Positions 30,489-39,019 of a stretch of DNA of 64,000 bases are shown one piece after another. Position 1 is the stretch's first letter. Every line of letters begins with the position of its first letter. The DNA is taken from NCBI RefSeq assembly GCF_009914755.1, contig NC_060948.1. The stretch is one strand, 5' to 3'. Both the position numbers and the translations under genes were made by a program. Source of the DNA: the human T2T-CHM13v2.0 reference genome, Homo sapiens. A model generated the notes under the pieces. That model did not search any database. It was given only the letters and a program-made list of their open reading frames with translations, and was not told where the DNA came from.

Positions 30489-33402
30489 TTTCCTTTTATT
30501 ATATTTTAAGTTTTAGGGTACATGTGCACATTGTGCAGGTTAGTTACATATGTATACATGTGCCATGCTGGTGCGCTGCACCCACTAACTCGTCATCTAG
30601 CATTAGATATATCTCCCAATGCTATCCCTCCCCCCTCCCCACACCCCACAACAGTCCCCAGAGTGTGATGTTCCCCTTCCTGTGTCCATGTGATCTCATT
30701 GTTCAATTCCCACCTATGAGTGAGAATATGCGATGTTTGTTTTTTGTTCTTGTGATAGTTTACTGAGAATGATGATTTCCAATTTCACCCATGTCTCTAC
30801 AAAGGACATGAACTCATCATTTTTTATGGCTGCATAGTATTCCATGGTGTATATGTGCCACATTTTCTTAATCCAGTCTATCATTGTTGGACATTTGGCT
30901 TGGTTCCAAGTCTTTGCTATTGTGAATAGTGCCAAAATAAATATATGTGTCCATCTGTCTTTATAGCAGCATGATTTATAGTCCTTTGGGTATATACCCA
31001 GTAATGGGATGGCTGGGTCAAATGGTATTTCTAGTTCTAGATCCCTGAGGAATCGCCACATTGACTTCCACAATGGTTGAACTAGTTTACAGTCCTACCA
31101 ACAGTGTACAAGTGTTCCTATTTCTCCACATCCTCTCCAGCACCTGTTGTTTCCTGACTTTTTAATGATCGCCATTCTAACTGGTGTGAGATGGTATCTC
31201 ATTGTGGTTTTGATTTGTATTTCTCTGATGGCCAGTGATGATGAGCATTTTTTCATGTGTTTTTTGGCTGCATAAATGTCTTCTTTTGGGAAGTGTCTGT
31301 TCATATCCTTTGCCGACTTTTTGATGGGGTTGTTTGTTTTTTTCTTGTAAATTTGTTGGAGTTCATTATAGATTCTGGATATTAGCCCTTTGTCAGATGA
31401 GTAGGTTGCAAAAATTTTCTCCCATTTTGTAGGTTGCCTGTTCACTCTGATGGTAGTTTCTTTTGCTGTACAGAAGCTCTTTAGTTTAATTGGATCCCAT
31501 TTGCATATTTTGTCTTTTGTTGCCATTGCTTTTGGTGTTTTAGCCATGAAGTCCTTGCCCATGCTTATGTCCTGAATGGTATTGCCTAGGTTTTCTTCTA
31601 GGGTTTTTATGGTTTTAGGTCTAACATTTAAGTCTTTAATCCATCTTGAATTGATTTTTGTATAAGGTGTAAGGAAGGGATCCAGTTTCAGCTTTCTACA
31701 TATGGCTAGCCAGTTTTCCCAGCACCATTTATTAAATAGGGAATCCTTTCCCCATTGTTTGTTTTTCTCAGGTTTGTCAAAGATCAGATAGTTGTAGATA
31801 TGTGGTGTAATTTCTGAGGGCTCTGTTCTGTTCCACTGATGTGTATCTCTGTTTTGGTACCAGTACCATGCTGTTTTGGCTACTGTAGCCTTGTAGCATA
31901 GTTTGAAGTCAGGTAGTGTGATGCCTCCAGCTTTGTTCTTTAGGATTGACTTGGTGATGTGGGCTCTCTTTTGGTTCCATATGAACTTTAAAGTAGTTTT
32001 TTCCAATTCTGTGAAAAAAGGCATTGGTAGCTTGATGGGGATGGCATTGAATCTGTAAATGACCTTGGGCAGTATGGCCATTTTCACGATATTGATTCTT
32101 CCTATCCATGAGCATGGAATGTCCTTCCATTTGTTTGTATCCTCTTTTATTTCCTTGAGCAGTGGTTTGTAGTTCTCCTTGAAGAGGTCCTTCACATCCC
32201 TTGTAAGTTGGATTCCTAGGTATTTTATTCTCTTTGAAGCAATTGTGAATGGGAGTTCACTCATGATTTGGCTCTCTGTTTGTCTATTGTTGGTGTATAA
32301 GAATGCTTGTGACTTTTGTACATTGATTTTGTATCCTGAGACTTTGCTGAAGTTGCTTATCAGCTTAAGAAGATTTTGGGCTGAGACAATGGGGTTTTCT
32401 AGATATACAATCATGTCGTCTGCAAACAGGGACAATTTGACTTCCTCTTTTCCTAATTGAATAACCTTTATTTCCTTCTCCTGCCTAATTGCCCTGGCCA
32501 GAACTTCCAACACTATGTTGAATAGGAGTGGTGAGAGAGGACATCCCTGTCTTGTGCAAGTTTTCAAAGGGAATGCTTCCAGTTTTTGCCCATTCAGTAT
32601 GATATTGGCTGTGGGTTTGTCATAGATAGCTCTTATTATTTTGAAATATGTCCCATCAATACCTAATTTATTGAGAGTTTTTAGCATGAAGTGTTGTTGA
32701 ATTTTGTCAAAGGCCTTTTCTGCATCTATTGAGATAATCATGTGGTTTTTGTCTTTGGCTCTGTTTATATGCTGGATTACATTTATTGATTTGTGTATAT
32801 TGAACCAGCCTTGCATCCCAGGGATGAACCCCACTGGATCATGGTGGATAAGCTTTTTGATATGCTGCTGGATTCGTTTTGCCAGTATTTTATTGAGGAT
32901 TTTTGCATCAGTGTTCATCAAGGATATTGGTCTAAAATTCTCTTTTTTGGTTGTGTCTCTGCCCAGCTTTGGTATCAGAATGATGCTTGCCTCATAAAAT
33001 GAGTTAGGGAGGATTCCCTCTTTTTCTATTGATTGGAATAGTGTCAGAAGGAATGGTATCAATTCCTCCTTGTACCTCTTGTAGAATTCGGCTGTGAATC
33101 CATCTGGTCCTGGACTCTTTTTGGTTGGTAAGCTATTGATTATTGCCACAACTTCAGATCCTGTTATTGGTCTATTCAGAGATTCAACTTCTTCCTGGTT
33201 TAGTCTTGGGGGAGTGTACGTGTCAAGGAATTTATCCATTTCTTCTAGATTTTCTAGTTTATTTTTGTAGAGGTGTTTGTAGTATTCTCTGATGGTAGTT
33301 TGTATTTCTGTGGGATCGGTCATGATATCCCCTTTATCATTTTTTATTGCATCTATTTGATTCTTCTCTCTTTTTTCTTTATTAGTCTTGCTAGCAGTCT
33401 AT
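30489..33402 (-). mobile_element. 5'-truncated young L1PA (PA2/PA3-like)
   Basis: 742-aa ORF2 fragment at 33323-31095 with RT motif FADD and a W-to-stop near the Cys-rich C-terminus; the L1 3'UTR ends at ~30489. Confidence 0.97.
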
Positions 33403-33792
33403 TTTTATTTATTTTTATATATAAATATATAACATATTTATTTTTATATATAAGTATATAAAATACATTTATTTTTATATATAAGTATATAAAATACGTT
33501 TATCTTTATATAGAAATGCATAAAATATGTTTATCTGTATATAGAAATGAAAAAAGTACATTTATCTGTATATAGAAATGCATAAAATACGTTCATCTGT
33601 ATATAGAAATACATAAAATACGTTTATCTGTATATAGAAATACACAAAATATGTTTATCTGAATCTAGAAATACATAAAATACATTTATCTGTATATAGA
33701 AATACATAAAATATGTTAATCTGTATACAGAAATACATAAAATACCTTTATTTTATAAAGAAATATATAAAATTATAAATATATATACAATA
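33403..33792. repeat. AT-rich minisatellite (~29-bp units)
   Basis: Repeats of 'aaatacataaaatacgtttatctgtatatag'. Confidence 0.9.
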
Positions 33793-37300: not shown

Positions 37301-39019
37301 ACGTGAAGGACCTCTTCAAGGAGAACTACAAACCACTGCTCAATGAAATAAAAGAGGATAGAAACAAATGGAAGAACATTCCATGCTCATGGGTAGGAAG
37401 AATCAATATCATGAAAATGGCCATAATGCCCAAGGTAATTTATAGATTCAATGCCATCCCCATCAAGCTACCAATGACTTTTTTCACAGAATAGGAAAGA
37501 ACTACTTTAAAGTTCATATGGAACCAAAAGAGAGCCTGCATCTCCAAGTCAATCCTAAGCCAAAAGAACAAAGCTGGAGGCATCACACTACCTGACTTCA
37601 AACTATACTACAAGGCTACAGTAACCAAAACAGCATGCTACTCGTACCAAAACAGAGATATAGATCAATGGAACAGAACAGAGCCCTCAGAAATAATGCC
37701 ACATATCTACAACTATCTGAATTTTGACAAACCTGAGAAAAACAAGCAATGGGGAAAGGATTCCCTATTTAATAAATGGTGCTGGGAAAACTGGCTAGCC
37801 ATATGTAGAAAGCTGAAATTGGATCCCTCCCTTACACCTTATACAAAAGTTAATTCAAGATGGATTAAAGACTTACATGTTAAATGTAAAACCATAAAAG
37901 CTCTAGAAGAGAACCGAGGAAATCCCATTAAGGACATTGGCATGGGCAAGGACTTCATGTCTAAAACACCAAAAGCAGTGGCAACAAAAGCCAAAATTGA
38001 CAAATGGGATCTAATTAAACTAAAGAGCTTCTGCACACCAAAAGAAACTACCATCAGAGTGGAGAGCAACCTACAGAATGGGAGAAAATTTTTGCAACCT
38101 ACTCATCTGACAAAGGGCTAATATCCAGAATCTACAATGAACTCAAACAAATTTACAAGAAAAAAACAAACAACCCCATCAACAAGTGGGCAAAGGATAT
38201 GAACAGACACTTCTCAAAAGAAGACATTTATGCAGCCAAAGGACACATGAAAAAATGATCATCATCACTGGCCATCAGAGAAATGCAAATCAAAACCACA
38301 ATGAGATACCATCTCACACCAGTTAGAATGGCAATCATTAAAAAGTCAGGAAACAACAGGTGCTGGAGAGGATGTGGAGAAATAGGAACACTTTTACACT
38401 GTTGGTGGGACTGTAAACTAGTTCAACCATTGTGGAAGTCGGTGTGGTGATTCCTCAAGGATCTAGATCTAGAAATACCATTTGACCCAGCCATCCCATT
38501 ACTGGGTATATACCCAAATGACTATAAATCATGCTGCTATAAAGACACATGGACACATATGTTTATTGTGGCACTATTCACAATAGCAAAGACTTGTAAC
38601 CAAGCCAAATGTCCTACAATGATAGACTGGATTAAGAAAATGTGGCACATATACACCATGGAATACTATGCAGCCACAAAAAATGATGAGTTCATGTCCT
38701 TTGTAGGGACATGGGTGAAACTGGAAATCATCATTCTCAGTAAACTATCACAAGGACAAAAAACCAAACACCACATGTTCTCACTCATAACTGGGAATTG
38801 AACAATGAGAACACATGGACACAGGAAGGGGAACATTACACTCTGGGGACTGTTGTGGGGTGGGTGGAGGAGGTAGGGATAGCATTAGGAGATATACCTA
38901 ATGCTAAATGATGAGTTAATGGGTGCAGCACACCAGCATGGCACATGTATACATATGTAACTAACCTGCACATTGTGCACATGTACCCTAAAACTTTAAG
39001 TATAATAATAATAATAAAA
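34306..39019 (+). mobile_element. 5'-inverted (twin-primed) L1PA (PA3/PA4-like) with 17-bp TSD
   Basis: Minus segment 34306-~36057 (ORF1 3' part and ORF2 endonuclease, MTGSNSYITILTLNVNGLN); plus segment ~36060-39019 (rest of ORF2, 3'UTR, A tail). TSD gaaatctgtgttatttc at 34289-34305 and 39020-39036. Confidence 0.96.

What the first reader, a model, noticed from the sequence alone, without database searches (positions are those of the whole stretch)
30489..39019. Two L1s of different subfamilies form a 2.9-kb inverted repeat and share private mutations
Seen: arms 30489-33402 (-) and ~36100-39019 (+) with a ~2.7-kb spacer. They differ at subfamily-diagnostic sites (RAKD/RTKD, TYFK/IYLK, LLKE/LLNE, KDKI/KAKI, SQEQ/SQGQ) yet share substitutions absent from the L1 ORF2 consensus as I recall it: HLYK (for HLYA), LKTCTRQ (G), WTH (CTR), NQAKC (P), TWVKL (M), plus silent gaggcaagc, ggatgtcctctc and ttttttcacag. 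The left L1's 5' end lies only ~40 bp from the right L1's inversion breakpoint in L1 coordinates, and I see no clear TSD for it. Inference: patchy arm-to-arm gene conversion in a mini-palindrome, or a DNA-level inverted copy later partly converted.
Basis: partly seen in the sequence, partly recalled or inferred. Interest (0 to 1): 0.7.

Follow-up and report, generated by a model that had tools for sequence, protein, structure and literature searches.

The report
Neighbouring LINE-1 copies swapping short patches
Two LINE-1 jumping-gene copies facing each other on the human Y chromosome share about nine times more rare mutations than unrelated copies do, likely because they inserted separately and later copied short patches from one another; neighbouring LINE-1 pairs on chromosome 1 show the same excess in either orientation, so this is likely a common process and not a Y-palindrome oddity.

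Summary
Observation confirmed. The arms (30496-33400 -, 36104-39008 +) are 93.8% identical. The left arm groups with young L1 copies; the right is an older, 5'-inverted insertion with a 17-bp TSD. They share 7-8 rare non-CpG alleles against 0.6-1.2 expected. Those counted genome-wide are at 0.4-1.1%, so they are not subfamily alleles. They interleave with 19 unconverted diagnostic sites, which implies at least five short patches.

The mini-palindrome framing is not supported. In 9 of 9 unselected chr1 neighbour L1 pairs overlapping by at least 1.4 kb, rare alleles are shared: 26 against 3.7 expected, in direct and inverted pairs alike. The Y pair's 2.6 per kb lies within their 0.4-3.0 range. 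Twelve short-overlap pairs show no excess (3 vs 2.3).

Best reading: short-tract non-allelic gene conversion between neighbouring repeats, as described for Alu. Ten paper searches showed no such L1 neighbour study. The 42-nt coincidence of the left 5' end with the right inversion point is unexplained (about 1.7% by chance, post hoc). No ape or other-Y data were available.

The parts
29739..30492 (.). AT-rich minisatellite, period 29, 26 copies; 3' flank of the left L1
   Evidence: TRF; copy number differs in the chrY paralogue
30489..33402 (-). Left arm: 5'-truncated young L1 (L1PA2-like; name recalled), 3' part of ORF2, 3' UTR and short A-rich tail
   Evidence: (groups with the young panel elements)
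30449..30470 (+). Candidate TSD copy for the left L1 (22 bp; uncertain, inside the minisatellite)
   Evidence: the exact word occurs only at 30449 and 33406 within 29700-33830
33406..33427 (+). Second copy of the candidate left TSD
33407..33773 (.). AT-rich minisatellite, period 31, about 12 copies, related to the left array; the left L1 likely split one array
   Evidence: 71-74% identity between the arrays
34289..34305 (+). 5' TSD of the right L1 (17 bp), preceded by TT and starting GAAA, an endonuclease-like site (motif recalled)
34306..36059 (-). Inverted 5' segment of the right L1 (twin-priming type); its L1 end abuts the start of the sense segment within 2-7 nt
   Evidence: one search aligned 34301/34306-35556 to uninterrupted copies; the rest read from the sequence and the hub's repeat mask
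36060..39019 (+). Right arm: sense segment of an older L1 (L1PA3-like; name recalled) with A-rich tail
39020..39036 (+). 3' TSD of the right L1
36239..36516 (+). Shared rare alleles 36239A and 36516A (left-arm 33265, 32988); unconverted diagnostic sites at 36225 and 36525
36944..36961 (+). Shared two-site haplotype 36944T+36961T (left-arm 32558, 32541), found only in the four chrY arm copies
37482..37530 (+). Shared rare alleles 37482T and 37530G (left-arm 32016, 31968)
37922..38198 (+). Two columns where the young left arm carries the right arm's old allele: 37922A (left 31582; 0 of 13 youngest-group elements) and 38198T (left 31305; 1 of 14); likely right-to-left transfer
38552..38715 (+). 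Shared alleles 38552G, 38604G (recurrent, weak) and 38715G (left-arm 30951, 30899, 30788); unconverted diagnostic site at 38721
37084..37084 (+). CpG site that co-varies between arms within each chrY copy: C in both arms here (left 32418), T in both arms of the paralogue
   Evidence: permutation P about 0.012

Best explanation
The two arms are L1 copies of different ages that share rare mutations in scattered patches, likely because they inserted separately and later exchanged short tracts by non-allelic gene conversion, a process likely common to nearby long L1 pairs. Shown: the right element has a TSD and a 5' inversion; the left has younger diagnostic alleles along its length; both carry rare alleles far above chance; unselected autosomal neighbours do the same. 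Inferred: the older right L1 inserted first by twin priming; the younger left L1 then inserted into the minisatellite; germline breaks or stalled forks in one copy were repaired from the homologous copy a few kb away in cis, without crossover, in at least five separate tracts of tens to a few hundred bases; roughly 8-24% of diagnostic columns moved right to left (2-6 of 25). The direction of the private alleles cannot be read. The pair was later duplicated with its region to a second, inverted chrY locus (likely the other IR3 repeat; name inferred from position), and exchange likely went on after that. No function is implied.
For: Excess sharing: 8 vs at most 3 in 560 other pairs; 7 vs 0.74; each arm against 45 other long elements shares at most 2 (left) or 3 (right). 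Alleles rare genome-wide. Separate origin: tree, 19 diagnostic differences across the arms, right TSD and inversion. An independent class of sites agrees: old alleles in the young arm at 37922 and 38198. Generality: 9 of 9 unselected long-overlap chr1 pairs share at least one rare allele, 26 vs 3.7 expected; random re-pairing of the same 18 elements gives mean 3.3, max 15 in 100,000. One pair has a clustered tract (5 alleles in 36288-36345, L061/L062). Three further pairs picked on one shared allele share 9-11 and 6-10, with unrelated flanks. Ongoing exchange: co-variation at 37084, and the right arm's G at 37228 in the paralogue's left arm. Precedent: neighbour Alu conversion within about 10 kb (passages in PMC6598467, PMC8230782); Y LTR tracts of 14-450 bp maximum, mean 99 (passages in PMC4921805).
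Against: Shared sites do not lie in longer identical runs than average (mean 31 vs 33 nt, P 0.63), and the longest run is 72 nt vs 92.5 expected (P 0.89), so no tract is directly visible. Two shared sites lie 9 and 6 nt from an unconverted diagnostic site, and 37922 sits in a 3-nt identical run, which needs very short or old tracts. The 42-nt coincidence of 5' ends is not explained. The strictest count is only 5 vs 0.82. Non-neighbour pairs can share many alleles: L047/L054 share 9 (both old, under-sampled subfamily) and L065/L072, about 0.2 Mb apart, share 5. The 37228 match and the CpG match at 38569 could be recurrent mutation (G in 3 of 55 pool elements at 37228). No outgroup or population data were examined.
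Confidence: 0.78

Rival explanations
1. Single insertion-time event: the cDNA of the incoming young L1 paired with the neighbouring right arm, was cut off where the homology ends at the right element's inversion junction, and patchy heteroduplex repair imported some right-arm alleles at once.
For: Left 5' end is 42 nt from the junction, about 1.7% by chance as a rough estimate; the two polarisable sites go right to left; no long identical runs, as expected for old events; left TSD unclear.
Against: The coincidence was noticed post hoc; unselected neighbour pairs show the same sharing, so no special event is needed; co-variation at 37084 between the two chrY copies points to exchange after insertion (P about 0.012).
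Confidence: 0.1
2. The left arm began as a DNA-level inverted copy of the right arm (template switch into the minisatellite) and was later overwritten in patches by distant young L1 donors.
For: Explains the matching ends and the unclear TSD.
Against: The left arm is young at 19 of 25 columns where the right is old, from 36225 to 38973, and sits in the young clade; only 7 of 58 rare right-arm alleles are shared; it would need many tracts from unlinked donors.
Confidence: 0.04
3. Chance recurrence at mutable sites, picked out after the fact from many L1 pairs.
For: 38604G is recurrent (5 of 63); counted alleles occur in 53-79 other copies; the weakest test gives P 0.0016.
Against: The background coefficient already absorbs site hot spots; 7 vs 0.74; the two-site haplotype is unique to the arms; the excess recurs in unselected neighbours and vanishes on re-pairing.
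Confidence: 0.04
4. Both arms descend from one unrecognised source lineage carrying these alleles.
For: Under-sampled subfamilies can mimic sharing (L047/L054).
Against: The arms differ in age class at 19 columns; no other copy in the genome matches the 36944+36961 pattern; counted alleles are at mutation-level frequency.
Confidence: 0.02
5. Assembly or polishing cross-talk between the arms.
For: Raw reads were not inspected.
Against: All 11 listed shared sites are the same in both chrY copies about 4.15 Mb apart, which differ from each other at 14 and 3 arm positions; the arms are 6% divergent; the same signal appears on chr1, chr3 and chr9.
Confidence: 0.02

Closest known systems
Non-allelic gene conversion between neighbouring Alu elements (Aleshin and Zhi 2010; not held; seen only through passages of PMC6598467 and PMC8230782)
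   Same: Excess of shared non-diagnostic mutations between independently inserted neighbouring copies; acts over about 10 kb; hotspots reported especially on sex chromosomes.
   Different: Here the substrate is 3-kb L1 sequence at 94-95% identity; in my small chr1 sample the excess appeared only with overlap of 1.4 kb or more (26 vs 3.7) and not below about 1 kb (3 vs 2.3), partly confounded with identity.
Ectopic conversion among Y-linked LTR elements (Trombetta et al. 2016, PMC4921805; passages)
   Same: Short tracts (minimum 3-86 bp, maximum 14-450 bp) producing a patchwork; linked donors favoured.
   Different: They used Y phylogeny and found many donors; here one adjacent donor is inferred from a single assembly, and the old third L1 nearby is not a donor.
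Arm-to-arm conversion in Y palindromes P1-P8 (Hallast et al. 2013, PMC3723533; passages)
   Same: Inverted arms with a spacer on the male-specific Y; exchange in cis.
   Different: Palindrome arms arise by duplication, are over 99.9% identical, have multi-kb tracts (mean minimum 2068 bp in P6) and GC bias; these arms are separate insertions, 93.8% identical, longest identical run 72 nt, and 5 of 8 shared alleles go toward A/T.
Twin-primed, 5'-inverted L1 insertion (mechanism recalled, Ostertag and Kazazian 2001; not read here)
   Same: Right element: TSD, inverted 5' piece, near-flush junction, tail.
   Different: None; an ordinary example.

Membership tests
Neighbour-repeat non-allelic gene conversion | Copies are independent insertions, not a duplication | tested here: met
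   Different age classes at 19 columns, unrelated flanks, right TSD
Neighbour-repeat non-allelic gene conversion | Excess shared non-diagnostic, non-CpG mutations over non-neighbour pairs | tested here: met
   7 vs 0.74; 8 vs max 3 in 560 pairs
Neighbour-repeat non-allelic gene conversion | Shared alleles are not subfamily alleles | tested here: met
   0.41%, 0.65%, 1.1% genome-wide at three sites; haplotype only in the 4 arm copies; two further sites in panel only
Neighbour-repeat non-allelic gene conversion | Discrete tracts of identity | tested here: inconclusive
   Interleaving with diagnostic sites bounds at least 5 blocks, but runs around shared sites are not longer than background
Neighbour-repeat non-allelic gene conversion | Non-reciprocal transfer polarised by outgroup or population data | not testable with these tools
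   No ape or other human Y held (no relatives); only the chrY paralogue comparison
Neighbour-repeat non-allelic gene conversion | Decay with distance | tested here: inconclusive
   Neighbours (up to 20 kb) exceed non-neighbours; too few pairs for a decay curve
Y palindrome (P1-P8 type) | Arm identity over 99.9% from duplication, multi-kb tracts | tested here: not met
   93.8% identity, longest identical run 72 nt
Y palindrome (P1-P8 type) | Exchange depends on inverted geometry | tested here: not met
   Direct neighbours show the excess too: 22 vs 4.6 in 15 pairs
Twin-primed L1 insertion (right element) | TSD, inverted 5' segment abutting the sense segment, A-rich tail | tested here: met
   17-bp TSD; junction within 2-7 nt in L1 coordinates
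L1PA2 (left) and L1PA3 (right) | Best match to Dfam/Repbase consensus | not testable with these tools
   No repeat library; names recalled; only relative age from a panel tree

The most novel reading that the evidence does not exclude
A resident L1 guided the insertion of its neighbour: the incoming cDNA paired with the right arm, was truncated where homology ends at the inversion junction, and took up right-arm alleles by patchy repair. Nearby homologous copies would then set 5' truncation points and seed the allele sharing seen in neighbour L1 pairs across the genome.
Probability: 0.1. Interest if true: 0.72.

Novelty: new member of a known kind. Interest (0 to 1): 0.38.

Why it matters
The locus itself is two broken L1 fragments with no sign of function. 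What carries weight is the control: unselected neighbouring L1 pairs with long overlap share about seven times more rare alleles than chance, in both orientations. If that holds genome-wide, L1 copies do not decay independently. That would bias divergence-based dating and subfamily calls for clustered L1s, create clustered false mutations, and give a countable read-out of germline homology search at 5% divergence, including a possible homology-length threshold near 1-1.4 kb. The kind of process is described for Alu and LTRs; my ten searches (listings only) showed no neighbour-L1 study, but the library lacks most subscription papers, the bare term 'L1' cannot be searched, and single L1-to-L1 conversion cases are in print as I recall.

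Tried and rejected
Run-length (GENECONV-like) test: negative. Third, older L1 in the window (82% identical) as donor: its matches to the arms' rare alleles are at background level (4 of 29 and 5 of 36 vs 6.8%; P 0.13 and 0.09) and isolated. Raised mutation load in the arms: rare-allele counts 40 and 56 fall within 16-62 for other long elements fetched as neighbour pairs, so rejected; the earlier twofold impression came from a panel of top BLAST hits. GC-biased conversion: 5 of 8 shared alleles go toward A/T, 2 toward G/C; no support. First unselected control (10 chr1 pairs anchored at the 3' end) was weak: 7 vs 3.3, P 0.05, because 8 of 10 had short overlaps. One search was meant as a denominator but used the wrong ambiguity code, so 37530 has none. 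Enrichment of carrier pairs within 20 kb in the allele lists (3 seen by eye vs about 0.15-0.3 expected, two denominators assumed) is only a rough figure. Aleshin and Zhi 2010 could not be read. No supplements were read. Hairpin folding was not run: it would not separate the rivals.
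Full report
1. The observation. Self-BLAST of the window gives one strong inverted repeat, 30496-33400 against 39008-36104, 2912 columns at 93.8% with 167 mismatches and 6 gaps; the arms are 2703 nt apart. Both arms are the 3' half of a LINE-1.

2. Anatomy. The right element is bounded by a 17-bp direct repeat at 34289 and 39020. Its 5' piece (34306 to about 36059) is inverted and, in the coordinates of four uninterrupted autosomal copies, ends 2-7 nt before the sense segment starts; this is the twin-priming pattern (mechanism recalled). 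The left element is 5'-truncated, has a short A-rich tail and lies between two related AT-rich arrays, period 29 and 31. A 22-bp word flanks it at 30449 and 33406, but inside the arrays, so its TSD is unresolved. Its 5' end is 42 nt downstream of the right element's junction in L1 coordinates. From exact-match counts at two depths (12,991 and 7,354 copies), the chance of a truncation within 44 nt of a given point is about 1.7%; this is rough and post hoc.

3. Two ages. I built a panel from the window's own assembly: 28 non-focal loci nearest the right arm (30 of 40 hits cut out, two being the arm and its paralogue) and 4 of the 40 hits of the left arm. A CpG-masked tree puts the left arm among the youngest copies and the right arm at the base of the middle group. 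At 25 columns where the right arm has the old allele, the left arm is young at 19 and old at 6. The names L1PA2 and L1PA3 are recalled; no repeat library was available.

4. Shared alleles are real and rare. With CpG-prone columns masked, the arms share 8 alleles carried by at most one other panel element; the 560 other pairs share at most 3. Scaling by each element's number of rare alleles, later versions give 8 vs 0.61, 6 vs 0.74, 5 vs 0.82 (searches used pools containing elements chosen for carrying a focal allele) and 7 vs 0.74, P 1.3e-5, with a 68-element pool without those. Genome-wide, the pattern with 36944T and 36961T has four matches, all the arms and their paralogues; 38552G is at 0.41%, 37482T at 0.65%, 36239A at 1.1%. 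38604G is recurrent (5 of 63) and is dropped. An independent class agrees: the young arm has the old allele at 37922 (0 of 13 youngest-group elements) and 38198 (1 of 14); the other four old columns are CpG-prone or polymorphic among young copies.

5. Shape of the exchange. Shared sites fall in five intervals separated by unconverted diagnostic columns; two are 9 and 6 nt from such a column. Identical runs around the 11 shared sites average 31 nt vs 33 expected, and the longest run is 72 vs 92.5. So there is no long or recent tract; tracts must be short, old or both. This result goes against a visible-tract reading.

6. A second chrY copy. The whole structure recurs, inverted, at G000:C24:5,985,005-5,996,000. 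By position and identity this is likely the other IR3 repeat (inferred; passages of bioRxiv 2022.12.01.518658 describe IR3/IR3 inversions around the TSPY array). The paralogue has all 11 shared alleles and differs at 14 left-arm and 3 right-arm positions. One right-arm difference, 37084, matches a left-arm difference at the same column and in the same copy (both C here, both T there); a CpG-aware permutation gives P 0.012. The paralogue's left arm also has the right arm's G at 37228. This suggests exchange went on after the copies diverged, on thin evidence.

7. The decisive control. Lists of rare-allele carriers held other close pairs. Three pairs picked on one shared allele (chr3 inverted 18 kb, chr9 direct 6 kb, chr1 direct 14 kb) share 10, 11 and 9 alleles against 0.3-0.6 expected, with alignment ending at the L1 tail and different age patterns; 6, 10 and 8 under the stricter pool. 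For an unselected sample I used the first 100 chr1 matches of three common-allele patterns: the pairs within 15 kb plus one at 16.9 kb, leaving out one at 19.6 kb (10 pairs; that element pair returns); five of the six pairs within 20 kb, leaving out one 0.8 kb apart; the six pairs within 20 kb not already held. Across these 21 pairs, 29 alleles are shared vs 6.05 expected; 15 direct pairs 22 vs 4.55; 6 inverted pairs 7 vs 1.51; 9 pairs with overlap of 1.4 kb or more 26 vs 3.74, each with at least one; 12 shorter pairs 3 vs 2.31. Re-pairing the 18 long elements at random gives mean 3.3 and maximum 15 in 100,000 draws. The Y pair's 2.59 shared per kb lies inside the unselected range of 0.36-3.02, near its top. 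Limits: one chromosome arm, some pairs share an element, short pairs are also less identical, and two non-neighbour pairs share 9 and 5.

8. Mechanism. Best reading (0.78): two independent insertions followed by repeated short non-crossover conversion in cis. The sharing, its rarity, the mosaic and the generality are shown; repair from the neighbour, tract length, order of insertion and timing are inferred. The main rival (0.10) is one insertion-time heteroduplex that also fixed the left 5' end. A DNA-level inverted copy, chance, a shared source lineage and assembly cross-talk are each at 0.04 or less. The older third L1 in the window is not a donor.

9. Known systems. Passages of PMC6598467 and PMC8230782 report, citing Aleshin and Zhi 2010, raised conversion between Alus within about 10 kb and on sex chromosomes; that paper itself was not held. 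Passages of PMC4921805 give Y LTR tracts with maxima of 14-450 bp. Passages of PMC3723533 give over 99.9% arm identity and multi-kb tracts for true Y palindromes, which this is not. Passages of PMC13192797 report 35 recombinant calls among 2,267 full-length young L1s, with no link to neighbours in what I saw. Passages of PMC3670932, PMC8232201 and PMC5237266 added nothing specific to L1. Ten searches (listings and abstract starts only) showed no study of neighbour-L1 homogenisation; this does not show that none exists. No supplements were read.

10. Verdict. Real, and read largely correctly as conversion, but an ordinary instance of what looks like a general neighbour effect among long young L1s, not a special Y mini-palindrome. 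New member of a known kind; interest 0.38, carried mostly by the autosomal control and the unexplained matching of ends.

Noticed in passing
window 31098-33398 (-): The left arm keeps a 767-codon stop-free frame of ORF2, also in the paralogue; only 4 of 44 other long elements have a longer one. It lacks promoter and start, so this is likely chance in a young copy.
   Followed up: partly
window 39765-43778: A third, older L1 (about 82% identical to the arms) in several pieces, minus strand where it matches the arms; not a donor of the shared alleles.
   Followed up: partly
window 37885-37938 (+): Dense cluster of differences in the right arm (12 mismatches in one 100-column block and several just before it); could be a tract from another donor or a multi-nucleotide event.
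   Followed up: no
window 29739-30492 and 33407-33773 vs L031: Both AT-rich minisatellites differ in unit number and type between the two chrY copies (29-31 nt indels).
   Followed up: no
window 2-2916, 2473-5386 and 4939-5384: Diverged tandem repeat with a period near 2.47 kb (73-77% identity) under the annotated lncRNAs LOC107987342 and TTTY22.
   Followed up: no
L065 (C1:59,250,485-59,253,515) and L072 (C1:59,468,446-59,471,476): Two L1s about 0.2 Mb apart share 5 rare alleles; either longer-range exchange or a shared sub-lineage.
   Followed up: no
L061/L062 (C1:66,062,197-66,079,279): Direct neighbours 14 kb apart with a clear cluster of 5 shared rare alleles within 58 nt; the cleanest tract seen here.
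   Followed up: partly
L038/L039 (C9:17,269,250-17,278,650): Direct neighbours 6 kb apart sharing 10-11 rare alleles spread over 2.1 kb, 5 of them C>A.
   Followed up: partly
window 48018-48632: Two adjacent 285-nt copies at 67% identity, 330 nt apart; a possible diverged satellite.
   Followed up: no
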